A stretch of DNA of 64,000 bases from Amoebophrya sp. A120 (Eukaryota > Protista > Dinoflagellata), in NCBI GenBank assembly GCA_905178155.1, contig CAJINV010000002.1, forward strand, positions 1,733,216 to 1,797,215, read 5' to 3'. Below, one piece after another: positions 2 to 63,166 of this stretch. The notes under the pieces were generated by a model. It was not told the origin of the DNA and did not search any database. It saw only the letters and a program-made list of their open reading frames with translations. The translations under genes and the position numbers were made by a program. Within the stretch, counting starts at the first letter, position 1, and every line of letters starts with the position of its first letter.

Positions 2-1066
2 TAGCAGCCTCGCTGCCCGCACACTGGGCACTTTGTCTATCGCCCACTGTTTCAGGGCAATTCCCTTGTAGTACAGCATCAAGTTTTCCACCGCCATCAG
101 GGTGCAGATGTCCGGAATTCCTGCGCACCGGTGCAGGAGTGTATTTGGGATCTGCCTCGGCAGCATGCAAATATTTTTCAAAAATTTTGCTGTGTCCTTT
201 TGCAGCTGTAGCTTGTTGGACTTCTTGAAGTAGGGAAAAAACGGCACGGAATTACTTAGCACTGCACTGTAGACCAGAGATACGTAGACATCTATTTTTG
301 TGGTGACTCTGATGCTTTTCAGTCGGGCGACGCTGTTGTTTTCTTGTGTCATCTTCCGCTTTGTGATTTCGTAGTGGGAACTGAAATCCCAGGTCCCATC
401 ATAAAAGAATCCCAGCGACCTGCTTGCGTCACTGATCTCGACCTTTTTACTAACCCCCACATCATAATAGATCGCTTCGGACTTTGACTCCTCAAAGAAA
501 ATGAAGGACTCTCGTCCCGCCTGGACGAGGTCCTTCTTGAGCTCGCTCACCTTCTGCTGGTCCCCCGTGCCGCACTGGCTGTTGTCGTCACTAAACTGAT
601 TCTGCGCCCCGTCCGCATTGATGGTTTCCATTTTCTGTATCAAAATACAGTTGTGGCAATTGAAGCAGCCGCCCGAGTAGGGCGACCCTTGTGGCATGCC
701 GGGGGACAAAGTCCAGTACCTAGTCCCCGTTTTGATTCTTACTTTTCGGTAGGAGAGCCACTGAACCGTGGCACAGACCAGGTCCACTGGCACCCCTAGT
801 TTTTGCATGGACTCAGTCAGCACCTGATGCGAAACAACATCGAACCCCGCCTCGTTGTCGTTTAGCAAAAGGAATTTTCTCAGCCCACTAGCCTCCAGCC
901 CTTCCTCAGAAAACAGAAACTCGATAATCGAAATAGCCCCAAATTTGTGATGCACATTTGTGACCCCAAATCTTGTCTGTATTGCAAGAAGGCAAGTCCG
1001 GAGAGCCCCCTGCATTTTGCAGGCGGTTTGTGATGCTGTTGGGCTTAGAGCATACGCTTTTGCCAT
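2..1066 (-). CDS. Non-LTR retrotransposon (LINE-type) reverse transcriptase ORF, 5'-truncated, open to the window edge
   Basis: Hand translation from ATG 1066 is stop-free to base 2 (355 codons) and is absent from the ORF track. Motifs in RT order: LLLNDNEAGFDVVSH (~830-870), GMPQGSPYS (674-700), QFSDD (584-598), RSLGFFYD and a thumb-like region. The first ~45 codons are introner-derived. Confidence 0.85.
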   Translation of the reverse strand, partial: MAKAYALSPTASQTACKMQGALRTCLLAIQTRFGVTNVHHKFGAISIIEFLFSEEGLEASGLRKFLLLNDNEAGFDVVSHQVLTESMQKLGVPVDLVCATVQWLSYRKVRIKTGTRYWTLSPGMPQGSPYSGGCFNCHNCILIQKMETINADGAQNQFSDDNSQCGTGDQQKVSELKKDLVQAGRESFIFFEESKSEAIYYDVGVSKKVEISDASRSLGFFYDGTWDFSSHYEITKRKMTQENNSVARLKSIRVTTKIDVYVSLVYSAVLSNSVPFFPYFKKSNKLQLQKDTAKFLKNICMLPRQIPNTLLHRCAGIPDICTLMAVENLMLYYKGIALKQWAIDKVPSVRAARLL

Positions 1067-1211
1067 GCTAGGCGCCTACGTCAAAACCTCTCGACCGAGG
1101 CTTGACATATGCCTGCAGACCTCTACTGCAAGACAAATCTGATTTGTGTACGGAAATCCAGCATCAGAAACTTCGTTTCGATATGGGGAGGGGGGATTTT
1201 TCCTCTTGATA
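926..1211. mobile_element. Family D introner in VPS15, left terminus displaced by the LINE insertion
   Basis: Right TIR ...gatatggggaggggggatttttcctcttgata ends at 1211. The body is collinear with the copy at 15353-15674, but the left TIR is missing and RT sequence stands in its place. Confidence 0.8.
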
Positions 1212-1888
1212 TCGGACGCATTCTGCGAGTTAACATCGCTTCGCTGCACTGCGCCGGACCGCGCGGCAACACTTCCGCCGGGGGTTAAAGACCCACCATG
1301 ATCCCTATTCTGCAGGTTTTCCTGCTTTAGAAGCAAAACACTCGTTCCTGAATCCGACTTCCCAGTCAACTGGGCATTCTCCCCGCCAGGCGTTATCGGC
1401 ACCTCGCCCTGCAGATTGTTGTTCGCCGCGGTAGTTCCGAGGGATTGCTGCGCCAATATCCCATCCGCTTGGTTGTAATTCGACACATGCTGGTCTGGGT
1501 CGACGAACTCAATCCCTTCGTAAGGGACAACATTAGAAACGCAAGCGAAGTTACCATTCAACTTCGAATTGTCCCCGTTGTTTGTCAACTGCTTCCGGAT
1601 TCTTTTCAAGATTTTCACGATTTCGGAAAAAACCTTCGGGTCGAGTAAGTCCCGGTGGAAGAAAACCTTACAGATCACTTTCCCATGTTTCGTATGGGTT
1701 GACTTCGCCGTTTTGAACAGCTTGTTGCTCGCGAGCCATTCTTCGTACAGCAGATTGTTGACGATCGGGACATTCGCCGTGTCGGAGAATTTGTTGGCTC
1801 CTGCGCCAGTAGTGGTGGAAAGTGTCGTCTGGGTCGACTGCTGCTCAGATAAATGCCCCTGGACACGGGTGGAAAAGTTGTTGCCCAT
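1212..1888 (-). CDS. VPS15: VPS15/PIK3R4-like kinase, first exon (rest of gene lies left of the window)
   Basis: MGN myristoylation-type start. YEEWLASNKLFKTAKSTHTKHGKVICKVFF resembles the Vps15 N-lobe (YxxxLGSxRFFKxARxxHxEGxVVVKVF). Confidence 0.7.
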
Positions 1889-2711: not shown

Positions 2712-5700
2712 TCATGCCAAATCTTCCAAATCAGAATAGTCCTCACCAGCCAAAACATGCGGCAAAAGCTTCTCGCAGTCCTCCAAACTCCGCTTTGTCG
2801 GGTCAATGTTCAGAATACACCGCAAAGATTTTTCGTACTCCCAAGGCCTCACCGCGTCTTCGCTGGTCCAGGAAACCAGTGGGAGGTGCGACTGCTGCGA
2901 CGACGCTATCCCAGAAGACACGCCAGACAAGTGTTGCGGATGGATCGGGTTTAACGCCGGTGTGTTCGTAGGGATCACGTGGTTCGCTCGAGCGTGGGAA
3001 AAATCGAATTCATAAGGGACTTTCTTGTCCAGACAATTTTGAACCTCCTTCGGGGTATTCAAAACCGCGAGCCAGTGCTCTAGTCTCTCCGCCTCTCCTT
3101 CATTCTTCGCGCTTTTGGTCAAATCGGTGCCGTTGGTGAAATTGAGTGTTTCGTTGAGTAACAAAAGCACCTCCCCGTAGTCGTCCTCCAACAAATCATC
3201 AGCTGTTTTGTTGAAAGCTTGCTGGGTATTTGTTTTGTTTTTACTCTGCTTGGCCGACGATGTTGTGTGAACCTCTCCCGGCTGCTTCGACCCGGGGGCG
3301 AGTTTTGCTGACCCAGGAGGCCCACTCGCAGGAGCTACTGCTGGAGTGTCGGTGATCACCTTCCCTGTATCCGCGTCGATCTCCACAATCTTCCCGTGCC
3401 TCTTCACCCGTTTTCGCACCACACGGTCCTTCAAAAGAGCCGGATCCTCCACGGGAGAATCCGACCCAGAGCCATCCGAGGGGTCGGGTGAGCTCTGGTC
3501 GGGAGTGCCTTCGTACTGGTTGTCTGGATTGTTTTCGTAAGATTGATACTGGTGTTCCATCTCCATGTAGGAATCGTGTGCATGACAGCTTGTTCCGTTT
3601 GCAATTTTCGGTTTGTTCTCTTCTTCCGCTTCCATGAGCTGCTCCTGTTCCGCCTTTTCCCGCTCCTGCACGTGCTGCAACACAAGTTGCGTCGTGGGGT
3701 TCTGCTCAAGGCCGAAGATCATCTTGTAGAGGATAATCCCGCAAGCCCAGTAGTCAGATTTCTCGGTAACTGGGTTGAAGGAAAAGTTGCAGGAGTCCTG
3801 TTTTGATAGCGATTTAGATATTGAAAAATGCATTCAACGTAGTACGTCGCATGCGAGGTAAAAATAGCATGAGAATCTTGTCCAACAGTGGGAAAACTGC
3901 ATTGCAAATTTTGAAAAAACTTGAATACCTCCGGCTCGTCGTCGCTATCGTCGTCACTCCCATCGCCGTCTCCTGACCCTTCCTCACCGTCGTCAGCTTC
4001 TTCAGATTCCTCCTCAGCCTCCTCGGATTCCTCCTCCTCTTCTTAAGGTATGGATTGCAAAACAGCTACACAAAGTTAGGGCGAGTTTTGAGTTTGCCAT
4101 GCACTGACTGTGGCATTGCAAATGCAAAAAAAGCTGCAAAAACTACGGACATACGCACAATTTTTCGCATCACAAATTCCGCATCGTTAAACTGTGTAGC
4201 CTAGTTTTGCATTTGGATACCTTCCTCATCGTCCTCGTCCTCTTCCTCACTCTGCACCGCAAACGGGATTTTTACCCTTTCCGGCTCGACCCACTGGATC
4301 TTGTACAAACAGCAGTCCTTCCCCTCCCTCCTACAAGCACCCAAGTCGATCGTCTTCAGCGTATCGCTACTTCTGCAATACACAAAGTTTTCAATCGAAA
4401 CATCGCCGTTTAAACACCCAACCCGTCTATGCACCTCCAACGTTCCGTGGATGATCATCTTGAAATACCGGGGAATGTCAAACGTTTTCCCGTGCTGCTT
4501 GTTCTTCAGCCAATCGCTCATGTCGCAACTCCCCAACTCCATCACGAAAGCACGCAAGTTTTGGCTCGGAACGACATAACTGCAGACTAAGCCGATGATG
4601 TACTTGCACCCTTTCTCCGCGGCGATTCTGAGAAATTCTAACTCCCGCTCGTACTCCTGTGTTTCCTCCGCAACGTCTTTCGCCGATTTCGGTTTTTTGT
4701 TGAAATGTAGGGATTTCCGGACCCCGAGGAGAATACGGGTGTGGTTGTCGTCTCCATTGTCGGTGTTCTGGTGAGTGGAGCTGTTTTTTTTCTTCAAAAC
4801 TTGGTTGTAAGACCCATTTTTTACGGCGTAATGAGATGCATGGCCACCGTTTCCATTCCCGTTTTTGTGCTTCATGCTGTTCCGCATTTTGTGTTTCGGT
4901 TTGTTCAAATCGAGCAACGCCTTGTGCGCGTCCTCGTACCGTTGTAGTTTGTCCGGAGAGATTAAACTCTGAAGGTTGAAGTTCTTGTAATCGCCGAGCT
5001 TCTCGTCATTCTCGTCCGTGTCAAGTTTTAGGAGAATTTTGTCCACGGTCGCGATGGACTGCAAATCCTCCGTTACCATATCATCGTGGTCGAGATCTTC
5101 CACCGTTTCTTGGAAGGTGGTTAAAACGGTCATGTCCACCTTCTTCCTGATTTGTGGGATCACGGCAGAAGCAGTTACCGGAGCATCTACTTCACCAGCG
5201 GTTTTCGTCATTTTGGGACTGTCAACCGCGGGAGGAAGACTGGTGGTTTTCTGCATCACTGTGTAGTCGAAAGACGCGGGCTGCGCCGGGCCGATGTGGT
5301 GTAAGTTTGTTTCGGAGGGGTGGTTTTTGAAATGGAATTCGCTGTTGTTGTTGTAGTTGTTGTTCACGTTATGCAATAACATGTCGTTGGAGTTGGTATT
5401 CACCGCATTGTTCAGAATGATTTCCATGTGATCACCACCGCTTGCCCCGGCCGGCCTTTTGTTCGGGCTCTGCTTCCCATTCCCGTAGTTTAAAGCGTTG
5501 TGAAAATCAGCGAGCTTCTGACGTGGTGAGACCTCGTTTATTGTCGTGCTGTACATAGCAGATGAGCTGTTGTGATTGTCATTCCCAGATGAAACGACAC
5601 TCACGTAGTTAAACTCCGGATTCTGCTTCGTATACAATGTATACTCCGCCCCATTGCTTCTCCACCCGGAGCCTGCTTTTGTCAAATGCTGCCCGGCCGT

Positions 5701-8700
5701 CTCCTTCTCCACCAATTTCGACTGCTCGTGCGCGTTTTTACTTTCAATCGGGTGGTGAGACGTTTTCACGTGCCCATAGATTGTCATGTTGGACAGTTTG
5801 CTGAATCTCAACCTCGTCTGCGCCCCCACCCAAGTCCAGCTTGGCTCAATCCTCGCTTGCGCGGCCGCTTTCCAGTGAACTCTGCGTAAGTTTTGTTTCT
5901 TCCTTTCCAGAGCGGTTAGATAGCAGTACGTGTCAGAAGTGTTGTAACACACTCTATACCCGTTCTCCGTTTCCCGGAAGTGCTGCGCCGGGACTCCGCA
6001 GACTTGGCAACAATGCAAAACCGGTCTTGCAGCGGTCACGTTATGTGGAATCATCAAACCATGCGCCAGCAACGGATTCATCCTCGCCAACAACGTCGGC
6101 TGCATGAAAAATTTCAGATTCTCCCTTAGTCTCAACAAATGCAACGTCGTCTGCTCCTTCAGCAACTCATTGATGCTCATCCTCTTCTGATTCTGCTGCG
6201 GAGTGGCCAAAGTCGTTGTGCTTTCAATCCTTCTTTGCTTGCTATGCTCCTGAATCTGCTCTTCGGATAAGGTCCTTGGTAAATGCACCGCCAACGCCTT
6301 GGAACTCTCTGCTCCCTCCCGCGGCGACTTCATGTTGTTGCTCGCGTTTGAAGAAACTTCCCATGCGGATTGCGCTTGTAAACTGTTGTTACTGTTGTTC
6401 TGCGCGACCAGTTGCTGCTGTTTCTTCACGTGGACTAAGTTCTGGATCCTGCGCAGAAAATCCCGCATGTGCTTGTCCTTTTTTGTTTCCGGATCATCGT
6501 GTTCTTGATGTACTAGACCCCCTCCAAATTCCGACCCCTGGCTCATCCTAGTACCACTGTTGCGAAGAGCAGCTGCAGCATCGTTATGATCGTTGTAATG
6601 ACCACTGCTTTCCCCCGTGAACCGATTGTAAGAAACCCCGCGCTCCATCAAAGCCAAATCGATCCTGTTGATGCAAGCCGGCGGGACCACCGTCGGCGAA
6701 TCCTCGTCCGCCAGCATGCTGCACCACAAAATCGACGCTTCTTCCGCGAGTAAAATTGCGTGGTCGTAATTCCGCTCCTCCAACTCGATCGTCGATAAAT
6801 TCAACAAATTCCGAAAGCAATACGTCACCATCTGCCGGAAGAGTTGGAGTTCCCTCTCCTCAATCTGGTTCTTCGTGGATTTCTTCGTCGGAAAGAGCAA
6901 TTTGTTCAACCGGGAGGACTGGAGCAAAAACTTCTGATACCGGGATATCAAAACTTTCCACTGGGTTAATAATTCCAGCAGTAATTCCCGGATTCCCGCC
7001 TGCTCCACATCCAATTTTTGATTCATTGCAGCGAGCTGTTGTGTTTCCTTCGTCGATATGGATTGCAAATATGTCTGGGAGTCTGGAAACTTGTAATGCT
7101 GCGTTGGGAATAGGGAATGCTCTGCAAATGCAATGGTGCGCAGCCAAGCATGAGAAATGTCTGCGCTTCTTTGTGTTGCATTTTTCGCATGGCAAACTGC
7201 GTTTTTGCATGACAAACAAAAGGGCGTCTTCTTGGACACGCATCACAAACTTTTTTAGTCCTGCCAGACAAGCATGACAAACCTTGCATCCTTCCAGACT
7301 CAGACATATTTGCAATGCATAGTCGACCCGGGTAGGGTAAAATCCTGCATCTCGTCCGGTTTGGAATACTGCTTGATATCCCCCATGTGGCGGGAGATTA
7401 GAGATCCGATCTTACTCGACGGGCTGGTTAAGAGGGAAGACTTGCTGCTGATCGGGCCAGTACCAGTACCAGCAGCCGCAGCAGCGGAATTCGACGCGAC
7501 CAACTTCCTGCTGTGCTTCCGGAGAGAGATCCTGTGCTTCAACAGTAAGTGCTATGAGAGTGCACAACTCCCTCTCCCCCTCATTTGTAATGCAAAATAC
7601 CCAATCTTCCACCCTGTGCCTCTTGACACGTTTAGCGTGACAAGTTCTGGAAGCCCAAATAGCACTACACTCCTTCGCAAATTTGTCATGCAAAACCTGC
7701 ATTCTTGCTGGCACGTGTATTGCCGTTCATACTATACAAATGAGGGGGAGGGGGGGTTGTGCACTGTCATAAGTGCGTCAGCATGTGGTCTTCGTGCTTC
7801 AAATGATCTAATAATCGTTCCAAAGTCTCCATGATCTGGGAATGATGGAGCAAAAAACTCGTCCCGGTGCCGGTGTCGAGCAAAGAATTGTGGTCGTGGA
7901 TCTGCAGTTCGTCGATGTTATTTTTCTTGCTGTTCGAGGGGGAGCCGGATCTGCTGGTAGAAGAATTGTTGTTCGTCCCACTATTGATGTTCTTACTCCG
8001 CCCGCCATTCGCTGCTCTCCGGACTGCGTCGGGTTTCAGAGACTGTAAAAACAGTTCCCTCCGTCTCTCTTCAATTTTCTTTTCCACCCGTTGCTGCACG
8101 CGTTTCACCCGATTCCTGGCGTTTTGAAGTCGCTCTATCGACCTTTTTCCGGAAGATTTTTTCACGATAGTGTTCACTCGCTTGTTTTTCGGGCCAGGTT
8201 TCTTCTTCTTGTTATTTCCTGCCGCTGCACCGGGTTTCTTTCCTCGACCCATTGGCGTGTTCATTTTTTTCCCGCCTTGCTTTTGGTTCATCTTTTTCAT
8301 CGCGGGTGGTGCAGCTTTCATCTTATTTCCCCTGCCCTTGTTTTTTCCCATCTTCTTCATCGATAAAGTTTTCTGCCGCTTCTCGTAGTGGATTCTTTCC
8401 CGGTGCTCCACGATGACGTCGGTTAGAGACTGCACTTCGGAAAGCAACGTCGTGAAGTCCTCCACGTGGTAGCAGTACATGGAGTTGTCGGAATATCGCA
8501 AGAAAAACCTGTTTCACTGTGAACTTGTGATACAGAGGAAGCAGCATAAAAGTGTTTGTCTTGCTACACATGCAAGACGGTGACGGTGGCTTTTTAGCCG
8601 TTTTTTGCCTTCGGGTGCATGCATGGCAAATTTTGCCTGTCATGTCGAACTAACTTGTGATGCAAAACTTGCAACAAAATCCTCACCGTGAAATACTTTA

Positions 8701-9312
8701 TTTACCGTGCGATACCGAATAGTCCACGATAAACCCGTACTCCTTCCACCTGGGATGCGTCAACGCAACCGCTTTCGCGAGTTTGTCGAATTTGGTGTTT
8801 TGCTGGGCCTGCTGTTGTTGAGAAATTGCGGAGGTTGCAGCTGTTCCCATAGCAGTCGCACTCGAAGACGACGCAGTACTACTCCCATTCCCGTGCGTCG
8901 TGACGGATACCATCTGTTCCTTCACAATTTGGTCTCCCTGCAACTTCCGCACAGCACTTCTTCTCATCGAGTGCAACACGGAGTCCGATTTCGACATGTC
9001 CCCTTGTAACAACCTGACATTCTCCAAACTCAACTTAATGTTCCCCTGCCCGCGAATCACCGACTTGGATCCATCGACCTTGTAATTCTCCAATTTCTGA
9101 AACCGGACGGAGATGCCCGTCCAAGTACCGCTGATCCAGAAAAAGCCGTAGTCCGCGGCGGAAAAAACCCGGTAATTCGTCGCATCGGGCTGCTTCCGTT
9201 CGAAAAAGAGTCTCCCCCCGTTGATCAAAATTTTATCCACGTGCGCCTTGTGCTCGGTGAAGCCGTGGGGGTTGAGAGATTGTTGGTCCGGGTTGAGGAG
9301 GTAAACGTTCAT
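2712..9312 (-). CDS. Large divergent Ser/Thr protein kinase, 6 exons, ~1,856 aa
   Basis: Exons ~9312-8715, 8493-7772, 7552-7322, 7056-4221, 4041-3929 and 3797-2712 join in frame (5,571 nt). Kinase motifs: YERELEFL, NGDVSIENF, KTIDLG, SDYWACGIILYKM, LNIDPTKR. Confidence 0.8.
3798..3928 (-). other. Canonical GT-AG intron
   Basis: GAG|GTATTC...CAAAACAG|GAC, frame restored. Confidence 0.8.
4042..4220 (-). other. GT-AG intron built on a degenerate TIR element (4049-4219), TSD lost
   Basis: G|GTATCC...CCTTAAG|AA. Inverted ends tatggattgcaaaacagctacaca / tgtgtagcctagttttgcatttggata. Confidence 0.75.
7057..7321. mobile_element. Family A introner (TIR core tgtctgggtctggaa)
   Basis: TIRs, perfect TSD gtcga, join G-S-T-K in frame. 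Confidence 0.92.
7553..7771. mobile_element. Family B introner (TIR tatgasagtgcacaac + C-runs)
   Basis: TIRs, perfect TSD agtgc, join T-H-L-L-L-K. Confidence 0.92.
8494..8714. mobile_element. Family E introner (TIR core tgtttcactgt)
   Basis: TIRs, TSD cggaa/ccgaa, join D-Y-S-D-N. Confidence 0.88.
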
Positions 9313-10444
9313 TTTCGCGGTAGATCTTCGATGTAGTTCGATTTGAGAAATAAACAGAGGGCTGACAGTTGGATAAATTATGAGGATGTGTATAGTGCCG
9401 AAAAAATACGAGAATGAAAAAATTACACAAAAACAACACTAAGTTCTCGAATAAATGAAATGGGGGGTCGTGGTGTTGAAACGCAAACGCCAGTAGCCAG
9501 AGGTTTCGACCTGCTGGGTCAAACCTGTATCGCAAAGAAGGAATTATTGGTCAACTATAGAAATACTGAAAACCTCCTCCGAAAACAAAACAAAATCTTA
9601 CGGAAGGCAGAAGACCGATAAGTTGGAGCCGCGTGAAGAACCCCTGCGCAGGGGAATGAGACCGAAGCATGGCTTCGCAAATTCAAAAACCGATATTAAT
9701 TTCGTTGCGTCATGAGCTGCTGCCCACTGCAATGAAGTAATCCGACCGGGTTGTGGCAGACACAATAATGACCGAGGAGCGGAAACAACAACTTTTGTGT
9801 GTTCTTTATCGATGAAGAACCGATCCGAAATACAACCGAATGTCGCCTGGCGAAGGGCTGCAAGAGTGATTTGTACAGCTAAAAAATGGGGAAGATGAAC
9901 ACGAAAATCATTCGCGAAAAGAACAAATAGGAGCTGTTTTGTCTCTACAGCATCACTCAACATTTGATGGTAGCCGAATTTTTTTACGTTTCACTTTAGT
10001 TGTTATCGGACGACCAGCAGATAGTACTCTATTAATACGCCACCGAATAAGACTGCAGCAGCGCTGATATTTTGGCCGACAACTGTTCCAGCGTATAGTA
10101 GTTTTTTCTTCCAACAAGAAGCGAATTTCAGGAATCCGAATCCTAAACAACAGAAAGAATTTGAAGGTGAACAACTCGTCGTGTGTTTTTGTTTTTCCCT
10201 ATCTTCTTTACAACAGAATACAGCGGAAAAAAATAGACCTCTTAGAATCGAGAACTGGTTTTCATCTGAATTCTCAAAACATACCCAGTCTATTGCTTAT
10301 TTTGCGGAAAGCTTGTAACGATATCAATGACAAGCACACCTCAAGCAGTGTGGCATTATGCGGTTTCGTGATTCGATTTCGAAGGCACCAAATCAATGAA
10401 ATTTTACAGAAAGTAGATCATTGGTGCGGCTCAAAAACAGATAA

Positions 10445-10628
10445 GAGTGAGGTAACAAATTCCTCCGTTAAGTTACCCGGTTCCCAACCGCCAGCCCGTT
10501 CCAGCGGATCGGACCGTTCCGTTCTCCGGATCCCGGATCCCGGGAACCGGGTAACTTAGCGTCCGGCGGCCGGCCGGACGCTAAGTTACCCGGTAACAAA
10601 CTTAACGGAGGAATTTGTTACCTCACTC
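10445..10628. mobile_element. PIF/Harbinger-like MITE with nested palindromes
   Basis: Perfect 30-bp TIR gagtgaggtaacaaattcctccgttaagtt, taa on both sides, internal 21-bp-arm hairpin at 10547-10593. Confidence 0.8.
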
Positions 10629-11639: not shown

Positions 11640-14600
11640 TCAGTTGTCATCGATGGAGGTGTTGCTCTCGAAGAGTGAGCTAGACACGCTTCTCCTTCTC
11701 GCCCGATGTTGTGCTGCTCTTGTTGCATCTACTCGTCCATGCGTTGGTTCAATATCACCTGTTGGTTGTTCCTGCACCATCATTGGTTGATCAGCCTGTG
11801 CTGCGAGCGTTTCCGAGCGCCGGTGCAGAAGTTGTTGATACTGCATATTATCGTCTCCGAGTCGTGTTTCTTGCATCGGGCCTGCCAGGAAATCGGGTAA
11901 AGATGCAACGCCTGGCGGCCCTCCGGGCACAGCAACTATCCCCGGAGGCGGCTGCTGCACTCCTTCCGCCGGCCAAGACCACCCTACCAGCTCGTCACCG
12001 CGAAGCATTTGTGGTGCTGCTGTACCAGCAACGAATGGCGGCTGTGGCGTTTGCAGGTCAACACCAAATACCACTTGTTCCCCCTCCGAACCCCCGCCAA
12101 AAGTCGGTCGGTCCGCCAACATCGGCCTATTCTGCTGCTGGTGTTGCTGGTGGTGGCATTGGGGCCCGAAACCATTCCCGCCCACATTCACTCTCAACGA
12201 CGACCCTTGGCTTTGCGCACCCCCAGAGCCGTTGCTGTCTTGCGATAGAGGGGCGACAGCGCGGTAGTGCCCGGGCGAGGGCCGGGAGCTCGCGCTCGAG
12301 CCGCCGCTTTGGTACCGGGCGAATTCGCCGGAGTTATTGGGGTGGTAAAACGGGTCGCTTTGTTGCTGCTGGAGCTGCAGTTGCTGCTGGAGCAGATGAT
12401 GTTGCTGTGCCGCGGCAAATAGCGCTGCATTTGGATTTTGCTGTTGACCGCCGGGGAATGGATTCCCCAGTGTCACTGGCTGCACGTTCACCCGCATACT
12501 CGACATAGAGTTGGATGCTCCGCTATGAACTGCAAAAGCATCGTACTCGTATAAATGCATTACAAATTTCCTCAGCATGAGAAATAAAATTTGCAATGCT
12601 GATTTGCCTCAAGAAAAAAACTTGTGATGCAAGGCTTGCATTTATACGAATACGATACTTTTGCACAGGATATCCGCCAAGGCTAGAGCCATGCGACAAG
12701 GGCGGCGAATGCGGTCCGGCGGGGTAATACCAAATGTAAAAGTGTCTGGGTCTGGAAGAATGCAACTTGTGATGCTGCATTTGGATTCCAAAAAAATCTG
12801 TATTGCATGAGTACCAAAGGGAACGTAATTCTTGCTACGCGGAGAGGGCATTTGTCATGCGGAATAGGCATCAAGAAGCTCTCAAAAAATCTGTGATGCT
12901 AGGGCATGCACCACAGACATCAGGGCTCATGCAAAACGTGCATGACAAGTGTCAGAATCTTCCAGATCCAGACATTTTTACATTTGATAGGTAAGCACCT
13001 CCACCTCGTTGCGAGTGCCACGAACTGTTTGCCGAGCCAGAAGTGCTGGTTAAGTGTCGGTTGGTTCCCCGACCACTGCCCCCGGAGTTGTTCCCGCCGA
13101 GGGAGGGCACCGGACCTTGCCGGCTGGAAGCGGCAAAAGAGTTCCCCCCGGAGGAAGAGCTGGTGCCTTGGCCGGCGGAAAGATACGACTTCCCGCTACT
13201 AGACCCCAACCCGGAGCTGCTATGCGACCCCCCGGACTGAAAAAAGTCCCGCCGAATCTTCTGGCCCTGCTGTCGGCTTTGCGTTGGTGCGGAACTACGC
13301 GGCGGCCGGTATTGCGGGCCCGGTGGCCCCGTATGTACAACCGTGCTAGAAGCCACTCCTCTCGGGGCGGCCGCGAGGTCAAAACTCGACCCTGTAGGAC
13401 CTTGGGAAGAAGATGATCCGCCGTGGTTTACCATTTCGTGCTGATGTCCACCACCACTGCTAGAAGCAGCAGTGGCGCCTGCCGGCGTGCCCTTTGATGT
13501 AGTCGACGTCTGAGCAGGTCTGTTTCGATCTGACCCGTGGCTTGATCGGCCGGCGTTATTTGATGTTCCAACTACACCGGAAAAACTTCCCGGCGGCGAA
13601 ACCACCCCGCCTTTCTGGTGGTATTGGTGCGCATTTTTCGCTCCGCGCCTGGTTCTCTGATGCACTCCTTTCCCGCTACCCGGAGGGGACACGTAGTGAT
13701 GTTGCCCTCCGTGTTGCTGGTGCTGCTGCCCCCCATCGTACTGGGTCCCCGGCTGACTGGCCGGTGGGGAAATGTATCATACGAAAAAAGTGTTTCACTG
13801 TAAGGATTTTCCAGGTTTTGCATCACAAGTTTGTTCTACATGACAGAGAAAATTTGCCATGCAAGGTTCCTAAGGGAAAACACAGCTAAAAATCCATTGT
13901 CTTGCATGTGTAGCAAGACAAACACTTGTGAGATACATTTTCTGCATTACAAGTTTACAGTGAAACAGTTTTTTCTGGCGATAAAATGCGCATCGCCTCT
14001 AATAAGTCCAACGCCGCCATGGCTTCCTTGGCACTATCGGTACTCGGTGGGGGTCGAACCCGAAGCTGCTGTCCGAACTCTTGACTACCGCTGTGGGGGT
14101 GATAGGCGGACCCGCCGAAAGTGCTAGTACTTGAGGGTGGCCCGGAATGAGGCGGACGGAAGTAGGGAAACAGCTGTGGTTGGTGCAACATCGTGCCTCC
14201 ATAGTACACAGGCGGGGGATTATCAATTGCAGCGGCTGCAGCTGCAGCAGCACCTTCGTGTGGACCGTGCGGTAGCTGTTCCATGGTAGGGTTGGGAGGC
14301 AGAGGCATTGGGTTAATATTTTGTAGAAGACCTGGCTCAACATCTTGCAAGAACGGTTGTTGATGTGCAGAAGGTGTTGCTGCTTGTGCACCGGCAGCTC
14401 CGCCCCATGCACCGCTAGAACTACCCTCATTTTCCCACAGTCCGCCGGTACTCAACATGTCCCGCATTTCGTAGGGGATGTCGCTCATGGCACTTGTTGG
14501 AAGATGGTGCTGTTGCGGCTGCTGCAAAAATTGCTGTTGCTGCAGCACTTGCTGCTGCTGTAAAAGCTGTCGCTGCAGTTCTTCGTGCTGGAGCTCCTGC

Positions 14601-27174: not shown

Positions 27175-27359
27175 AATGAAAAGAATAAAATCTCCATGCT
27201 GGTGCTATCCTTTTTTTGCGTCCGGAGCCGGATGATCTTCACAGGAAAGCTCGCGCGCCTTGCAGGATTAAATCAAAATCGCGGGCGAAGCTGCCCAGCC
27301 TATAAGTCACATCACCCCGCACAGGAGAAGCATACACATACATGCGTGCAAAGAACTGC

Positions 27360-49100: not shown

Positions 49101-52100
49101 CTCAAAAACCGAATGTCTTGCAGGCACAGCAACACAAACACTTGACTTTCGTGTTTGATTCCACGCATGACAAGTTCACAGTGAAACAATTTTCCTTGCG
49201 GTACCAACGGCTGTAATGGTGTTCTGCGTGTCGTCGATCGCGGTAGTGACGTTTCCGACTTTGTCCTTCAACTCAGACACCGCCTCGGCGATACTTGTTA
49301 CGTCAGACAGCGTGTTCTGCCAAGTATCGATGATCGTGTCGATGTCCGTGAATTTTTCCGCCACCGTATCCTGAGGAAAAACGTCTCAATCCCAGAATTG
49401 TCATGCAGATTTGCAATGACAAGGACATTGGTGATGCGCATACCTATGGCAGACATTTCCAGTCGTGTTTTGGAATTTGTGATGCTGTGAACAGGATAAG
49501 CAGATGGATCTGTGATGCGGCTGCAGTTGCTAACCTGCACTACACTACGGAGTGCAACTTGTCATGCGTGACTCCCAAAGCTCCTAGGTTTGTGTTGCAA
49601 AATCCCCATCTTGACTCTGGTGTGGGGACGTTTTTACTGAGGATAGACCGCCATGGTGTCCGTTTTCACTTCCTGCATCCGGATCTCGTCGGCTTTTCTT
49701 TTCGCTAGAATCTCTTCATCGGACAACAACGTCGGCTCCTCCTCCATTGGATTTGTCCCTAACGCCAGTGTCACCGTTTTGTTCGTTTGTTCAGATGCTG
49801 CTTTGATGGTCTCTAGATATTCCACCATCTTTTCAAACAGCTGATCCCTCGCTTCTTCTATCGTAAGAAAAAACTGTTTCACTGTGAGCCTGTGATGCAG
49901 AGAACGAAGCAACAAAGTGTTTGTCTTGCTACACATGCAACACAACGGATTTTTAGGCGTGTTTTCCCCTGGGAAACACGCATGACAAATGTTCTGTGTG
50001 ATGTGTAGCAAACTTGTGATGCAGATCTTGCAAAACCATCCCAGTGAAACAGCTTTTCGTGGGATATCTTCCGTGGCCGGGTTCATTGCGGTGACGCCAG
50101 AAGAAGAGCCAGATGAAAGCGTGAAGTTGTCACTACTGTACAATTTCGCAGCAATCCCCTCGACTTCCTCTTTGATCCTCTGCAACAGCTGGTAGTGCTC
50201 CTGTTTCTGCTCCTCTGGGGTCGCCGATAAAACTCGTTCGCCGCCCGACTCAGATGAAAGCGAACTCGCAGCCTTTTTCCCATAAGCCGTGTTGTTCAGA
50301 ATCTCCCCCAACTGCGCCGCCTCCTGCTCGGACAGCATGTCTTGGTTTTGTATCATCGCATCCTGCACCTTCAACAGCCCCTCCGTGACCTTTTCACTCA
50401 CTTTTGCCGCGATCTCGTCGGCGTTGGTGGTTGTTGGGCTAGAGGACGCCGCCCCTGAGGTGGCCATCCCCGAGGAGCTGTTCGACGTATCGTCAGAAAA
50501 GCCAGAGTCTGCTGGGGACTGAGATTCTGAATCCGTTGCGCTGTTGGAGCCGAGAGTAGATGAGGCAGTTGTAGCAGGATCATCCCCACTACTCGCAGCC
50601 GACGCTCCGCCGCTCAACTGGTTCTTCAATTCCTGCACCACTGCGGAAGCTACATTTTTCCCGCTCAACTGCTCGCCCAAAGTGTTGATTTTGTTTTCCA
50701 ACACTGTCGGGTCGTACTGATTCCCCAAAGCAGCCGAGTCGTCGATCTTGTGCACGTTTTGCCAGTCGGTTAGGTTCAAGCCGGCGAGTTGAATGTTGAG
50801 TTTCTCTATGAAATGCAAAAGTGTCTGGGTCTGGAGAGTTGTGATGCTGGGTGGCGTATCGTATGGAGGCCACAAGTGCTGGCTCAGCATGACAAGTTTC
50901 TGAGCTTCTAGGTGTTGCCTATTCTGCATGACAGACTGCGTCTCTGCATGACAGAAAAGTGGCGCTCTTGGGTAACGCGTATGACAGATTTGAGAGTCAT
51001 GCCAGACAAGCATGACAAACGTGCACTCTTCCAGACCCAGACATTTTTGCATTTCATATTCTCTAGCAACTGTTTAATCTCGTCGGCGTTGGTGGTTCCC
51101 TGTGTTTGGAGGATCGCAAACTGCTCGGCTAGAACGTTCTTCACCTGTGTGGCGAGCGTCGGGGTGCTTGTCATCTCACCGCTCATGTAGCCACTGCCAC
51201 TCCCGTCTGTTGTGCTGCTATTCATCCTATGGATTGGAAATATGTCTGGGTCTGGAAACTTGTGATGCGGGTAGGACAATCATGATGACGTCTCAATTTG
51301 CAGCTCAGCATGACAAGTTTCTGAGTGCCTACGGTGTTGTGTATTCTGCATGACAAATCGCGTTTCTGCATGACAGAAAAATGGGGCTTTTGGGTAATGT
51401 GCGTGACAGCCTTTGGAGTCATGCTAGCAGAGCATGACAAGCCTTGGATTCTTCCAGACCCAGTCACTTTTACATTTGATACATCCCACCGTCGTTGAAG
51501 CCAGAACCCGCACTACCACTTCCGATCCCGAAAGTTTGGTTGATCGCGTCCAACGCCTTAAACAGTTTCACCGCGACGGTCTCCTGATTTTCCTTTACCG
51601 AATTATCCAATGACGCGATGACGGTCTGCAGCTCGTCCCTGTATCAAAGGTAAAAGTGTCTGGGTCTGGAAGATTGCAACTTGTGATGCTGTCTCTGCAT
51701 TATACAAAAATCTGTATTGCATGACCAGCAAGAGGGCTCCAGTTTGTGCTATATGGGGAGGGTATTTCTCATGCGGGATAGGCATCAGAAAGCCCGCTAA
51801 AAATCTGTGATGCCAGGTTATGCATTACAGACGTCATGTGTCATGTAAAATCTGCATGACATCCAGACCCAGATATTTTTACATTTGATACCCTGACCTT
51901 ATTCGCGATTTCAGTCGCGGAAACCCCGGCGTTGCTGTAAACGGTGTTGCCAAATGTACTAGATGAATTGCTTGTGTCATTCCCAGAACCTCCGTCGCAG
52001 CACCCTTGGTCCTTAATCGCTTTTACCACTTTCTCCGCAACATCCTCCTGATTTTCCTCCACCGCGTTTTCTAGTGTCGCAAACGCGTCCGCGAGCTCCA

Positions 52101-55100
52101 ACCGCACTTGCTGGGCGACGGTTTTGGCCTGGCTGGCGTCAGGACTGCCTGAATATGCTCCGGAAGAGGAAGAAGACGAGTTCGAAGCGGATGGATCAGT
52201 TGCACTACCACCGGGCACTCCTACTGCGGAAGATGGTCCTGCGCTACTACCGCTACCCGCATTTCCTCCAACCTCGCTGCTGATATGCCCCTTCAACTCT
52301 TCCTTGTCCGCTTCCATCTGCTTTTTCAAATCGGTTTGGAGTTGGCCAGAACTGCCTAGCAAACTTGTGAGCTTCTTCTCCACGGCGTCCGCAACTGCGG
52401 CAATGCCCTCGTCGTCCACTGCAGAGTTAGTATTTGTTTTTGCGCCAGCGGAAGGGGAAGAAGAGGACGCAGATGGCGAAGTACTAGCAGTTCCGTTAGT
52501 ACCACTCTGGGTGGTCGTATTAGAAGCTGCTGCACTTTTCGCATTAGCAGCTTTGTTTTTCGGTTGCGTATGTACAGGAACATAAGTCGGCTGAGGAGCT
52601 GGCTCGAACTTGTCTAATTCGGTCGAGATGTGGTTTTCCAATTCGGTGGTTAATTCGTCTTTCATATGGATTGCAAAAGTGTCTGGGTCTGGAAGATTGC
52701 CAGGTTTGTCATGCAGATTCTGCATGATTCGCGACGCCTGTAATGCATGATCTAGCATCACAGATTTGTAAAGGGCTTCCTAATGCCTATCCCGCATGAG
52801 CAATTCCCTCTCCGCGTAACACAAACTGGACTCCTGTTGCTGCTCATGCAATACAGATTTTTTTGGAATCCAAAGACAGCACTACAAGTTCCAAGCTTCC
52901 GGACCCAGACATATTTGCATTTGATACTTTAAATTCTCAGCGGTCGTCGTCATGTCCTGTTTCAAATCCTGCTGGAGTTCCCCAGTAGGAGCGAGTAAAT
53001 TCGCTAGTAATTGCTGGACCTCGTGTATCCAGGAAAAAAACTGTGTAAGTGTAACTCTGTGGGAGGAGCAGCATCACAAATTTGTTTTGAATTACAGGGA
53101 AAACCTGTCATGCGCACCTAGTACGTGAAAAAACGTATGAAATACGGCAATGACGCACGTCCAGCATGACAAGTGTAACTGTTTTGCATATTCTGCATCA
53201 CAGACTTACACTTACTCAGTTTTTTTGTGGCATATCGTGGGTCACGTGTTGGGCGATCTCTGCGGCGGTGAAATTCGCGTCGCTGATGTTCACTGGGTTC
53301 GGCCCGATGTCGATAGGTGTGCTGGCTGGAGTTGTGCTAGAAGTATTATCACCGCTGGTGTTACCCGCCGGGCTGCCGGAGTCAGTCGTGCCTGGAACAC
53401 CCGAAGAAGAGCCACTCTTAGAACTTGCCGAGCTAGAACCTCCAGATGAACCACCTGTATTGCTATTACTGCTAATCTCTTGCTTCAGACTGTCTGTGTT
53501 GTGGGTCATTTCGTGTTTCAGCATTTCCGAATTGCTCGCCATTTCGTGCTTCAAATCCTGCTGTAACTGACCGGAAGAGGAGAGCAAGTTGTTCAATAAT
53601 TGTTCCACAACCGTTTTCACCTGACTCGCCACCGCGGTCGCGTCTAGATTTGATGATGATGGTTTTCCTCCGTCATCGCTCTCGCTTGATGCCCCGTCGC
53701 CGGCTTCATTATCCTCGCCCGAGTCGTCTCCCGAACCATCGTCAGGTGCTGGCGCAGGTGAAGCAGCGGATTTACCAGAAGGCACGGTTGTAACACTAGG
53801 CGCTGGCGCCGGTTGCACGTCAATGTTGTTAATCTCGTGTTTCAATAATTCCGCATTGTGTGCCATCTCGTGCTTTAAATCCAGTTGCAACTGCCCACTA
53901 GACGACAACATCTCTAACATTTTCTGTTCCACAGCGGAAACGATTTCCGAAGTGTTCACAACGGTCGTGTTCAACCCAGTACTGTCCTGAATGATGTTCG
54001 TCACGTGGTGGTGGTCGTGATGCGCGTAGTTGTTCACCGTGTTGGTCGTGTTCAACGAACTCAAATCCAGTTTCGCTGCACTTAAATCCAGATTCGACAA
54101 TTTATCCTCCAATTCGGTGGAAAAATCCTGCTGCACTTCCGTCCGGATATCAAATGCAAATATGTCAGGCGGGTCTGGGCTTGTGCAAGACTTGTAATGC
54201 TCCACTAACAGGAGACAAAGATCTGTCATGCATGTTGCGCTACCGCGCTGCTTTTTTGTAAATGCAAAAACGCAGTTTCTCATGCAGTTTACGCAAGACC
54301 TACAAGTCGCTCAGATACTTGTCATGCGTTTCCCCATGTTGGAGGATGCTTGTGAGCTGCAAACATGCATCACAACTTTCCAGACCCAGACATATTTCCA
54401 ATACATACCGGATCTCCGTTTTTAATTTGTCCGCGTTCGTCGCCATTTCCGTTTTCAAATCGGTTTGGAGCTGGCCGTATCAAATGTAAAAATGTCTTGG
54501 TCTGGAAGGGTGCAACTTGTGATGCTGCCTTTGGATTCTACATAAAATCTGTCTTGCATAAACAGGAAAAGAGGTCCAGTTGTTGCTACGCAAAGACGGC
54601 ACTTCTCATGCGGTAGGAGCATCAGAAAGCTCTCGCAGAATCTGTGATGCTAGGCATGCATCACGATCACAGACATCATGACTCATGGAAAATATGCATG
54701 ACAAGCCTTGTATTCATCCAGACCCAGACATATTTGCATTTCATAGGCCGGAAGAGGAGAGGAGCTCAATCACTTTTTGTTCCACTGCAGTGGCGATTGC
54801 GTCGGTGTCGATAGAACCACTGCCACTGGAACTGCTACCGAAAATGCTGCCGCTGCTGTTGTTAGAAGAAGAAGCAGAACTAGATCCCCCACCATTGTTC
54901 GCCAGCGCGTGCGCCACCGAATCCTCTAAAGAGTCCATGAAATTCTGCACGGTGACTTCCTTTGCTAGTGTCCCGACCGTGGATTCTTTCGCGACTTTTT
55001 GATCCAAAGTGCCTACCGCGGTTCTCAAGTCCGACACGTCGGCTTTGATGGTGTCGAGGTGGTCTTCCGTTAAGGTCCCAACAGACTGAATCAAAGTGTC

Positions 55101-58266: not shown

Positions 58267-58659
58267 GCTGCCTGGAACTGGATGTAAGGTTTTCGCAGTT
58301 CAGGGTCGGTCGCTATCGTCCATCCTGTGAAAAAAACTTCTCGCTCGGCGGACGAGAGCGACCTTGGGATGACCTGGTCATAAAGGTCAGACTGAGCTAG
58401 GCTTTTGTTGGCCTTGGGATAGTACGATTGCGCAACAGAATAGAAAGAACAACTTTCGCTCTAGAGGCTTCTCTGTGATACAGCACTCCGACGTCTGGGC
58501 ACTCGCAAAAGGCCAGACACCGTCAAAAACTCCTCGCTCATGAACTGCTCTCAACATGGTTTGCTGTTGTGCCTTGTCTTTGGGAACACGAGACAGAACT
58601 AAGGAGGAGGCACATACACAAGAAGCGATGCGCGCAGGAATCCGCGGCGGAGCAGAGTG

Positions 58660-60100: not shown

Positions 60101-60504
60101 TTGCAAACCAAGAAAGCGCTACGAAGCATGCGCCTGGAAGAAAAAGAACAACGCCGCTCGGATGTGTCCGGTGAGAATGCACAAGCAGTGAGCCATGTGC
60201 AAGAACAAAACAACGCACAGCAGCCACGGCAGTGGTGAACACTTTTTATCGAAACTCCCAGCGAATACACAATGTAGCTAAAGATCAAGCCTTGGTAGTT
60301 GGTGCATCAACGAATATCTCAAATCCGATATCGCAAAGCGTTGCCATCAGTCAAGACGCAATGCCACATCAGAGCTGCAGCAGTGGCGCTGCGTGATGCA
60401 GCATGTCGCAAAAAATGTTCAGTTCTTGGAAAATTTTCACGACACTCCAGGTAGCTTCAGGAACTTGTGCCACTACATTTATCACTTTCTTCGTCCTTCC
60501 TTCA

Positions 60505-63166
60505 TCACCTCTGAAACCATTCTCGATTCCACTCTGGCATTTGCAGCGACCCGCCTTGCTGTTTTATCCTTTCCGCTGACAAGGTCAAGCATTCATACCC
60601 GTTTTCCGTGACCAGAAACGTGTGCTCAAACTGCGCACTGCGGGCTCCGTTCATGGTCACCGCGGTCCAGTCGTCGGGCCAAATGCCGTCGTGGCTGTTG
60701 TTCAACCCCAGATTGATCATCGGCTCGATGGTGAAAATGTGCCCCGGCTTCATGATCCCCGGCACCTTCGAGCCCTTGTAATGGGGGACCTGTTTTGACG
60801 ATTTTCATGATAATCGAGTTTGTCATGGAGCAATGGTGATAACAGCAGGCATTTGCCATGCGGAACAACAACCCAAAAGAATAGTGAGTACAATCGCGTG
60901 TGCCAAAACATCAATACCCCCACCAGCAACAATCAAACCTACATACCTGTGGCGGCCCGTGAAACAATTTTCCGACTCCGTGCCCACAATACGCTGTTAC
61001 CACAGAGCATCCTCTCCCCTCCGCGACCTTTGTTATCTGATTCCCCACCGACCGGTATAATGTTCCCGGCTTTATCGTCTTTGCCGCGGCCAACAGCGCG
61101 CTGTAGGCGGTTTCAACTAGTTTCGCGGACTCCTCAACTGTTCTTTTCTTCTCGTCCGGCAGTTTCTCGAAATACTCCGGGTCGGTGTAGGATTTCCCGA
61201 CCAAAAAGGTTTCGTTCAAATCCGCGTGGAAGCCTCTGCTGTAGACGGAAATGTCCAAGTTGATGATGTCTCCGTCCTCAAACGGCCGGTCGTCCGGAAT
61301 GCCGTGGCAAATCACTTCGTTTGCGGACACACAGACGGATTTGGGGAACCGGTAGTAGTTGAGGGGGGAAGGGTAAATCCGGCGGTCAATGCAGGCTTGG
61401 GTAATGATTTTGTCAATCTGGTCCCCGGTCACGCCGACGCAGACGTAGCTGTATTTGCAGTTATGAAGTGGATGAGCGGTGATATCTTTTGTCATACGGA
61501 ATTTCAACGCAGAAGCACGGGGCGCGGGCGCATGCTGCGTTTGTAAAACCGATCATGATGGTGATGTGTAGTGGGGCGCGCGAGGTGCAAGCTACGGTGC
61601 GCAAAGCTGTTTGAAATTATATGGTTGTCAGCACGATGCAATTTCTGATATCGACTCCGAATGGAATTTGTCATGCGTGATGGAACTGCAGAGAAAAATC
61701 TGTTTGACACAGTAGTACCAAGTTCCAACACTACGAAAAGATAGAAGTGTGCTTGGGTCGCAAATTGTGCCATTTATTTTCTGTAGCGGCAACATACCAA
61801 CACGTTGTTGCATTTTGAGAGCAACACGTGCAACTAGGAGCGCATATTTCGGTTCCTTGTATTAGTGCATTAGAAGACCCACTGCTCTTGCAAAAATGAA
61901 AATTTGCATACTCATACGAAAAAATCAAGTATAAGAGAACGAGTACCCGCTCGCCAAGTCCAGCACGTCTCTTCCCAGCCGGCACACTTCCCGCATGATC
62001 TCCAACTCGTCGCCCTTAACCACCTATCAAATGTAAAAATGTCTGGGTCTGGAAGAATGCCAGGTTTGTCATGCATATTTTGCATGACACATGATGCCTG
62101 TAATGCGTGGCCTAGCATCACAGATTTTGAGAGGGCTTTCTGGTGCGTATTCCGCATGAGAAATGCCCTCTCCGCGTAGCACAAACTGGACTCCTTTTGC
62201 TGGTCATGCAATACAGACTTTTTTGGAATCCAAACACAGCATCACAAGTTGCAATCTCCCAGACCCAGACATTTTTACATTTGATACCACCGGCACCACG
62301 TTTTCCGGGTGCTGCTGCTCGGAGAGACAATGTCCCTCTGGGTGGTCCGCGTAATCCGGGGCCTCGATGTAATCCGGCATCTTGACCTATGCATTGCAAA
62401 TATGTCTGGGTCTGGAAGGTTGCAACTTGTAATGCTAGCTTTCCATACCTAGTAAATCTGTATTGCATAACCTACAACAGTCGCAGCCTCTTTGTCTTTT
62501 GTTCATACAAACAACTTCTCATGCGGATTGCCCATGAGAAACCGTTCTGGAAGGTTGTCATGCTAGGTTGGATTCGGGACTGTTTCCATCATCCACATTT
62601 TAGCATCAGAAGTTTCCAGACCCAGACATATTTGCAGTTGATATCACCTGTTTCATCACCTTCCCGGGTCTCAGTTCCCCGCTAAAAACATACTCCTTCG
62701 GTCTCCTTCTCACCCGCCCTGGGGCCTCCCAATACTCGGGCTCTGGTTGCTTTTTCCCCATTTTCTTCTTCGCGGTGGTTATTGTAGTCGCTGACGTGGC
62801 CTGCTCGGATGATGGGTTATTTTTATCGCCGTTACTTGGTGCAGCTGCTGGGGTAGGAGGTTGTGTCGGTGCTAAACCCAAAACGTTCATGGCCCAGTCG
62901 TCGAATTTGAGAACTTCCTCTCCATCCTCATTGGTGTCCCAATACGCGCCGCGGAGCTTCTTGTTCCCCTTCTTTTTCGCCTTCTTCTTCGCATTTTTTG
63001 ATTTTTTCGCTGCGGAAGGCTCGGCGTCTTGTTGATCGGCGGTTGGGTCGGTGGGAGCATCGGCTGCGATTTTTGCGTCAGTTGCTGCTGCCACATCTTC
63101 CATAACAACATCTTCTGCTGCCGCGGGGTCTGGCTTCGCCGTTTTCTTCTTGCCGGCGGGAGCCAT
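60505..63166 (-). CDS. METAP1: Methionine aminopeptidase type 1, 5 exons, ~492 aa
   Basis: [75 protein letters not shown]. Joined frame is 1,479 nt. Confidence 0.95.
60790..60946 (-). other. Canonical GT-AG intron
   Basis: CAG|GTATGT...CAAAACAG|GTC restores P-Q-V-P-H-Y. Confidence 0.9.
61449..61946 (-). other. Canonical GT-AG intron
   Basis: GG|GTACTC...ATACAG|C restores S-G-Y-V-C-V-G-V-T. Confidence 0.85.
62025..62286. mobile_element. Family A introner (GT-AG compatible)
   Basis: TIRs, perfect TSD ccacc. Confidence 0.93.
62388..62643. mobile_element. Family A introner (GT-AG compatible)
   Basis: TIRs, TSD tgacc/tcacc. Confidence 0.92.

What the first reader, a model, noticed from the sequence alone, without database searches (positions are those of the whole stretch)
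926..62643. Dense multi-family system of TIR + 5-bp-TSD elements acting as non-canonical introns
Seen: ~43 elements in about 10 TIR families interrupt seven genes. For all 40 with a TSD, removing the element plus one TSD restores the frame, including in conserved MetAP1 and inside a protein repeat, and 38 of 40 have no GT-AG reading at any register. Known: introner elements with inverted and direct repeats were reported in Amoebophrya (Farhat et al. 2021), so the phenomenon itself is not new, but to my knowledge the excision mechanism is unresolved. Inference: removal is guided by hairpin and direct repeat rather than by splice dinucleotides.
Basis: partly seen in the sequence, partly recalled or inferred. 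Interest (0 to 1): 0.85.

Follow-up and report, generated by a model that had tools for sequence, protein, structure and literature searches.

The report
Amoebophrya transposon introns, fixed cut register
Forty-three small transposon-like elements interrupt seven genes of the marine parasite Amoebophrya A120 and, where transcript-like assemblies cover them, are missing to the base despite lacking normal splice signals; this kind of intron is already published, and the added detail is that the cut likely always falls one base before and four bases after the element, likely made by a relaxed spliceosome rather than guided by the flanking repeat.

Summary
Real, and already known: these are the introner elements of Amoebophrya sp. 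A120 (Farhat 2021, PMC7789003); two deposited A120 proteins equal my spliced models letter for letter. I find 42 TAT...ATA elements plus one truncated copy in seven minus-strand genes; 28 of 42 have a perfect 5-bp target-site duplication (TSD). Removing element plus 5 nt keeps the frame for 42 of 42; only 2 of 42 offer GT-AG at any register. Transcript-like contigs (one study, RNA status a guess) lack element plus 5 nt at 25 of 42 (10 direct joints, 15 by offset sums). Six copies with imperfect or no TSD fit only one shared register: intron = N|TAT...ATA-NNNN. The register aligns TAT with the native GTA(T) donor, which favours a relaxed spliceosome; no lariat data exist here. The scan reported the same system and register before on other parts of this genome.

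The parts
926..1211 (-). element, TSD 3/5, one TIR degraded; gene 1888 to window start
   Evidence: frame only
4049..4219 (-). element with no TSD; joined at -1/+4 (GT..TT, 176 nt), in-frame AG 3 nt further not used
   Evidence: deposited protein P0121 identical to model; k>=2 gives a stop, k=0 another residue
7057..7321 (-). element, perfect TSD (kinase-domain gene 9312-2712)
7553..7771 (-). element, perfect TSD
8494..8714 (-). element, TSD 4/5 (silent)
10442..10621 (-). GT..TA intron over a different hairpin element (10445-10628, 3-bp TAA duplication) in a 3' UTR
   Evidence: joint in 4 of 4 runs, no sliding
12524..12672 (-). element, perfect TSD (gene 24234-11640); also one unspliced contig
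   Evidence: RNA-like joint
12728..12989 (-). element, perfect TSD, 3' end GTA instead of ATA
   Evidence: RNA-like joint
13775..13983 (-). element, perfect TSD
   Evidence: RNA-like joint
14608..14881 (-). element, perfect TSD
   Evidence: RNA-like joint
15353..15674 (-). element, perfect TSD
   Evidence: RNA-like joint
16400..16657 (-). element, perfect TSD
   Evidence: RNA-like joint
17489..17750 (-). element, perfect TSD
   Evidence: RNA-like joint
17801..18111 (-). element, perfect TSD
   Evidence: RNA-like joint
19374..19533 (-). element, TSD 4/5 (k<=4)
   Evidence: RNA-like joint, both=4
20133..20384 (-). element, TSD 4/5, register test k<=1
   Evidence: RNA-like joint, both=1
20467..20692 (-). 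truncated element lacking the transcript-3' TIR; must be removed for the frame, 3' cut unresolved
21002..21186 (-). element, TSD 4/5, register test k<=1
   Evidence: deposited protein P0126 has His, not Arg
29799..30060 (-). element, perfect TSD, 3' end ACA (gene 33626-29309)
   Evidence: frame only
30437..30697 (-). element, TSD 4/5 (silent)
   Evidence: frame only
32706..32992 (-). element, TSD 4/5, register test k>=1 (k=0 makes a stop)
36421..41725 (-). eight elements with perfect TSD in gene 44492-35812: 36421-36760, 38136-38284, 38378-38595, 39338-39644, 39804-40085, 40153-40302, 41147-41407, 41464-41725
   Evidence: frame only
47411..51890 (-). nine elements in gene 56239-46122: 47411-47662, 47832-47972, 48115-48393, 48974-49203, 49367-49645, 49859-50066, 50807-51058, 51228-51481, 51642-51890
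   Evidence: offset sums 1520 and 770 nt in one 7416-nt RNA-like contig
52665..52926 (-). element, TSD 3/5, register test k=1-3
53026..54745 (-). three elements: 53026-53234, 54148-54407, 54478-54745 (the last inside a protein repeat)
   Evidence: offset sums 481 and 633 nt
62025..62286 (-). element in MetAP1, perfect TSD; a GT-AG reading (k=4) cannot be excluded
62388..62643 (-). element in MetAP1, TSD 4/5, register test k<=1; its GT-AG reading (k=4) is excluded
60505..63166 (-). methionine aminopeptidase gene (PF00557), 492 aa, 2 elements and 2 GT-AG introns
   Evidence: model identical to A120 protein P0001
3798..61946 (-). eight GT-AG introns, all GTA...ACAG: 3798-3928, 30199-30331, 31040-31159, 42800-42928, 48525-48625, 55146-55240, 60790-60946, 61449-61946
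   Evidence: four of eight supported by RNA-like offsets, one by P0121, three by frame only

Best explanation
These are the published introner elements of Amoebophrya A120, likely non-autonomous DNA transposons, which are missing from transcript-like contigs together with five flanking bases and are likely cut from the pre-mRNA at one fixed register (one base before TAT, four bases after ATA) by what is likely a relaxed major spliceosome. Steps: (1) inferred: a transposase acting on the TAT..ATA ends inserts copies in either orientation and leaves a 5-bp duplication. (2) shown: transcript-like contigs lack element+5 nt. (3) inferred from six copies: the 5' cut is N|UA(U), the native GUA(U) donor with a free first base, and the 3' cut is counted four bases past ATA without needing AG. 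(4) consequence: because 1+4 equals the TSD length, any insertion is scarless; the TSD is a by-product that makes the cut harmless, not its guide. (5) inferred, weakest: the inner stem brings the ends together, and the first A of the terminal ATA (position -7) may be the branch point.
For: Identity: P0001 and P0121 equal my spliced models; ends match the paper's A120 motif TAT-N7-AAA. Removal: 10 direct joints and six offset sums that equal prediction exactly. Register (k = bases taken before TAT): 20133 k<=1, 62388 k<=1 and 52665 k=1-3, 21002 k<=1, 4049 only k=1, 32706 k>=1; none contradicts k=1. At k=1, +2 U and +3 A in 42 of 42 elements and 8 of 8 GT-AG introns; A at -7 in 41 of 42 elements, 7 of 8 GT-AG introns and in the GT..TA hairpin intron. 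A hybrid intron (native GTA donor, non-AG end, no TAT ends) is spliced. The motif TGTVATGC is shared by elements (124 hits in 10,472 nt) and GT-AG introns (8 in 1,364 nt, 0.1 expected) but nearly absent from exons (3 in 37,699) and intergenic DNA (1 in 14,465). Farhat found all but 6 of 89 spliceosomal proteins and all snRNAs but U1 in A120; Table S4 lists only NT- starts among the main A120 sites. Tunicate precedent: PMC13326754, PMC11282704.
Against: No lariat, circle or knock-down data. The register rests on six copies: three from contigs of one sample, two from gene annotation, one from stop avoidance; 52665 assumes a 267-nt removal (266 also fits if the neighbour shifts). Both ends sit in strong stems (median z -7.3) whereas GT-AG introns do not fold (z -0.9 to 1.6), which a snRNA-based machine must unwind. 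12728 has G at -7 yet is removed; 42800 has C at -7; native 3' ends are A-rich, so A at -7 is partly chance. No preference for G at +1 (14 of 42 here, 7 of 36 in another assembly). TAT conservation may serve the transposase alone. Table S4 depends on how the aligner places sliding junctions. One contig runs unspliced into 12524. No transposase was found.
Confidence: 0.58

Rival explanations
1. A separate, structure-reading machinery (as proposed for Euglena nonconventional introns, or an endonuclease plus ligase) cuts at a fixed offset from the paired ends and may release a circle.
For: All 42 elements fold more stably than shuffles; inner stem predicted in 34 of 42. Euglena uses a paired motif at fixed distances from the ends and circular products. 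U1 snRNA not found in A120. A fixed -1/+4 register fits this too.
Against: Terminal pairs predicted open in 17-18 of 42, among them RNA-supported 12524, 14608, 16400, 62388. A hybrid intron with a native GTA donor inside a stem and a non-AG end is spliced; Euglena's two systems rarely make hybrids. GT-AG introns share the elements' internal motif.
Confidence: 0.27
2. The direct repeat itself guides removal (slippage or exon-end matching between the two TSD copies).
For: 28 of 42 TSDs are perfect here and 273 of 366 in another assembly; at k=1 the last four exon bases equal the last four intron bases.
Against: Imperfect copies are removed at the same length; the TSD-less 4049 follows -1/+4 in the deposited protein; the hairpin intron has no junction repeat. 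Perfect TSDs are expected from recent insertion.
Confidence: 0.05
3. Elements are excised from DNA (ciliate-IES-like) in the expressing cells, and the RNA merely copies the cleaned gene.
For: Transposon anatomy; removal equals exact reversal of insertion.
Against: In run X1, contigs at depth 40-45 run from exons into the elements and one spans 47832-47972 whole. The junction mixes letters of both TSD copies at 52665 and leaves a 7-nt footprint at the hairpin element. An unspliced form exists in the RNA-like runs. X1 may be the window's own source, and 1158 of its joints were not shown, so a rare or stage-specific form is not excluded.
Confidence: 0.05
4. The joints are reverse-transcriptase jumps across hairpins at direct repeats, or cryptic GT-AG sites are used.
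For: Hairpin plus short repeat is the classic template-switch setting (recalled). 16 of 42 elements have an in-frame GT-AG option within 12 nt.
Against: Retention breaks the ORF in 41 of 42, including conserved MetAP1, which is collinear with 12 relatives across both junctions. Direct joints at 17489, 17801, 19374 use +5, not those options; 62388 refuses its GT-AG reading.
Confidence: 0.04

Closest known systems
Introner elements among the non-canonical introns of Amoebophrya sp. A120 (Farhat et al. 2021, PMC7789003; read: abstract, passages, sections 11, 12, 16, supplement part 3 of 5 and legend passages)
   Same: Same organism and elements: TAT-N7-AAA inverted ends, short direct repeats, about 240 nt, hairpins, no GT-AG, RNA-supported.
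   Different: The paper calls the repeats 3-5 nt and the splice position variable or unknown; here the TSD is 5 bp and six copies fit one register.
Amoebophrya A120 introner families in Gozashti et al. 2025 (PMC12130899; read: 4 passages, 19 of 58 A120 rows of supplement file 8; files 13-14 not searched)
   Same: Mostly TIR DNA elements with many non-canonical splice sites; one family has integrase-like ORFs.
   Different: Rows seen give TSD calls of 2-5 nt and mixed splice-site modes, no single register.
Fritillaria borealis non-canonical introns (PMC13326754 passages; PMC11282704 section 6)
   Same: Transposon-derived TIR/TSD introns removed by a modified U2 spliceosome.
   Different: Keeps preferred dinucleotides (AG-AC, AG-AT) and U1; A120 has no fixed terminal dinucleotide at the 3' end and no U1 found.
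Euglena nonconventional introns (PMC12501133 abstract and passages; PMC11282704 section 6)
   Same: Paired ends at fixed offsets, frequent junction repeats, no GT-AG.
   Different: Different motif (N3CDG / CH'G N5-6); circular products; rare hybrids, whereas A120 donors resemble the native donor.
IS3EU/GingerRoot and IS481EU DNA transposons (PMC10045372 passages)
   Same: TA..TA or TNT..AYA termini.
   Different: TSDs of 6 bp, or about 4, 15, 25 bp, not 5; no transposase found here, so only a lead.

Membership tests
Amoebophrya A120 introner elements | from the A120 genome | tested here: met
   models identical to A120 proteins P0001, P0121
Amoebophrya A120 introner elements | inverted ends TAT, about seven variable bases, AAA | tested here: met
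   84 ends: T 83, A 83, T 82 at 1-3; A 74, 77, 78 at 11-13
Amoebophrya A120 introner elements | 3-5 nt direct repeat at the boundaries | tested here: met
   41 of 42 match 3/5 or better, 28 perfect
Amoebophrya A120 introner elements | repeated in the genome | tested here: met
   clusters in the window; element bins up to 274,030 summed depth against about 45 in X1
Amoebophrya A120 introner elements | absent from transcripts, non GT-AG | tested here: met
   25 of 42 in RNA-like contigs; run type is a guess
Spliceosomal (U2-type) intron | GT-AG or GC-AG ends | tested here: not met
   2 of 42 at any register, one of them excluded
Spliceosomal (U2-type) intron | donor core +2 U, +3 purine | tested here: met
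   42 of 42 at k=1; depends on the inferred register
Spliceosomal (U2-type) intron | lariat with 2'-5' branch; snRNP dependence | not testable with these tools
   no such data
Euglena-type nonconventional intron | N3CDG ... CH'G N5-6 signature | tested here: not met
   end profile is N-TAT(C/G) ... (C/G)ATA-N4
Euglena-type nonconventional intron | circular excision product | not testable with these tools
   no such data
IS3EU/GingerRoot transposons | TA..TA termini | tested here: met
IS3EU/GingerRoot transposons | 6-bp TSD | tested here: not met
   0 of 42; 1 of 366
IS3EU/GingerRoot transposons | related transposase in an autonomous copy | tested here: inconclusive
   no autonomous copy in the window or in 567 kb of loci

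The most novel reading that the evidence does not exclude
A120 has a U1-less spliceosome that works by ruler: it takes N-UA as donor, branches at the first A of the terminal ATA and cuts six bases further on whatever the sequence, so that its 1+4 offset equals the transposase's 5-bp stagger and every insertion in either orientation is a ready-made, scarless intron; the genome's GT-AG introns carry the same internal motif and run on the same machine.
Probability: 0.35. Interest if true: 0.8.

Novelty: already known. Interest (0 to 1): 0.42.

Why it matters
The phenomenon is in print, but how tens of thousands of signal-less introns are removed is open. A fixed register turns 'variable splice sites' into one rule, predicts the exact intron ends and a candidate branch point, would correct junction calls in the annotation, and explains why this genome tolerates transposon insertion in coding exons (elements are 16% of this window). 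It makes the spliceosome-versus-new-machinery question testable with existing reads and one lariat experiment.

Tried and rejected
No whole genome is held, so no genome-wide count. The run search listed no holder on record as RNA; X3-X6 are guessed RNA and are one sample of one study; I treat them as transcript-like because X3 skips GT-AG introns and has zero depth in 4 of 30 bins where X1 has 44-49. The RNA-like runs did not cover 2700-9340 or the junctions of 20467 and 21002. The search for the deposited 2237-aa protein failed on its length limit, so 47832 and 48974, which would test the register, and 926 stay untested. In the other assembly 0 of 11 oriented imperfect TSDs were informative by stop codons; a hint of AG at -2/-1 (8 of 36) was not borne out by the window (2 of 42) or by unoriented counts, so I do not use it. 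A 4.2-kb candidate autonomous element in L063 is an ordinary gene stretch between separate copies. No Rfam match in the window. No AG puts the truncated copy in frame with its GT donor. My first models misplaced one GT-AG intron and missed another; corrected. Five paper searches on this question (and 40) listed nothing that, in what I read, fixes the A120 register or reports lariats; subscription papers such as Henriet 2019 and Roy 2023 were not seen.
Full report
Observation. Scans of the window found 42 elements of 141-340 nt that begin TAT and end ATA (a few with one changed base), plus one copy that lacks its transcript-3' end. Pairs with a perfect 5-bp flanking duplication number 26 in the automatic scan against 0-2 in ten shuffles. 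Of the 42, 28 have a perfect TSD, 10 match 4/5, 3 match 3/5 and one has none; no other length from 3 to 9 occurs. All lie in seven minus-strand genes. Taking out element plus 5 nt, with eight GT-AG introns and an assumed 227-nt removal of the truncated copy, gives ORFs of 532 (open at the window edge), 1857, 3222, 1079, 2180, 2237 and 492 aa; 42 of 42 keep the ORF at +5, none at lengths out of frame, one on retention. Two of 42 offer GT-AG at some register. Related copies lie in both orientations.

Identity. The MetAP1 model equals A120 protein P0001 (492 of 492) and the 1857-aa model equals A120 protein P0121. Farhat et al. describe A120 introners with TAT-N7-AAA ends and short direct repeats, call the splice position variable, and leave the mechanism open. 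The phenomenon is therefore known. A collection scan found the same families in a separate public assembly: of 366 elements picked without regard to TSD, 273 have a perfect 5-bp TSD; 49 of 56 with independently framed flanks need +5 modulo 3, and 1 of 47 has a GT-AG reading. I cannot say how close that strain is.

Transcript evidence. Contigs of runs X3-X6 (guessed RNA, one sample) give direct joints of element+5 nt for ten elements. One 7416-nt and one 1850-nt contig of X3 span the 2237-aa gene and MetAP1; six offset sums (1520, 770, 481, 633, 157, 1026) equal the prediction exactly, covering 15 more elements and four GT-AG introns. Five further elements are supported by deposited proteins only, twelve by frame only. 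In X1, contigs pass from exons into the elements at depth 40-45. Against: one X6 contig runs unspliced into 12524, and RNA-like contigs hold element copies with other flanks.

Register. A perfect TSD hides the cut; mismatched copies reveal it. With k the number of bases taken before TAT on the transcript: 20133 k<=1; 62388 k<=1 and 52665 k=1-3 (the latter assumes 267 nt); 21002 k<=1; 32706 k>=1 because k=0 makes a stop; 4049, which has no TSD, only k=1; 19374 k<=4. Only k=1 fits all. At 62388 this excludes the GT-AG reading, and at 4049 an in-frame AG three bases further is passed over in the annotation. Three informative copies (926, 47832, 48974) could not be tested. I noted this register before looking up earlier findings, several of which report the same on other parts of the genome; they are not independent support.

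Mechanism. At k=1 every element intron starts N-U-A, 41 of 42 N-U-A-U, and all eight GT-AG introns start GUA, five GUAU. The first base is free (G 14, C 12, A 11, T 5), as are the last two. A at -7 is shared by 41 of 42 elements and 7 of 8 GT-AG introns, with one spliced exception (12728). All elements fold strongly, but the terminal three pairs are predicted in only 24-25 of 42, the inner stem in 34. A different hairpin element in a 3' UTR is spliced from a native GTAAC donor inside its stem to a TA end, with no junction repeat and again A at -7. An internal 8-mer is about 70 times denser in GT-AG introns and 150 times denser in elements than in exons and intergenic DNA. Together these favour one flexible machine for both intron types, most simply the major spliceosome, whose parts Farhat found except U1, with tunicates as precedent. 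This step is inference; a Euglena-like structure-reading system remains the main rival.

Mobility. Termini resemble IS3EU/GingerRoot and IS481EU but the TSD length differs; Gozashti et al. report an integrase-like A120 family. No autonomous copy was found.

Verdict. Observation confirmed; known system; direct-repeat guidance not supported; fixed -1/+4 register likely (about 0.8) and not found in the papers read; spliceosomal removal about 0.6.

Noticed in passing
window 10442-10631: A single-copy hairpin element (10445-10628, GAG..CTC ends, 3-bp TAA duplication; PIF/Harbinger-like by recall) in a long 3' UTR is spliced as a GT..TA intron in 4 of 4 runs, leaving a 7-nt footprint.
   Followed up: partly
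window GT-AG introns 3798-61946: All eight start GTA and end ACAG with A-rich, not pyrimidine-rich, 3' ends; six of eight carry the elements' internal motif, so they may be decayed elements or share a binding factor.
   Followed up: partly
window 20467-20692: Element without its transcript-3' TIR or TSD must still be removed for the frame, and no AG is in frame; its 3' cut is unknown.
   Followed up: partly
window 11640-24234: The 3222-aa ORF is deposited as at least four fragments (P0124-P0127), one with a 19-residue gap against the genomic frame: likely a split annotation.
   Followed up: no
window 24400-25600, 27300-28750, 58600-60100, 63600-64000: GC-rich (about 60-65%) stretches between genes with no elements found.
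   Followed up: no
L055 5792-6763: A 972-nt copy of the commonest family carrying about 700 nt of unrelated sequence, perfect TSD, no long ORF.
   Followed up: partly
window 46122-56239: 2237-aa protein with five or more SSSGQLQxDLKxEM-like repeats and 13 elements; no relative found.
   Followed up: no
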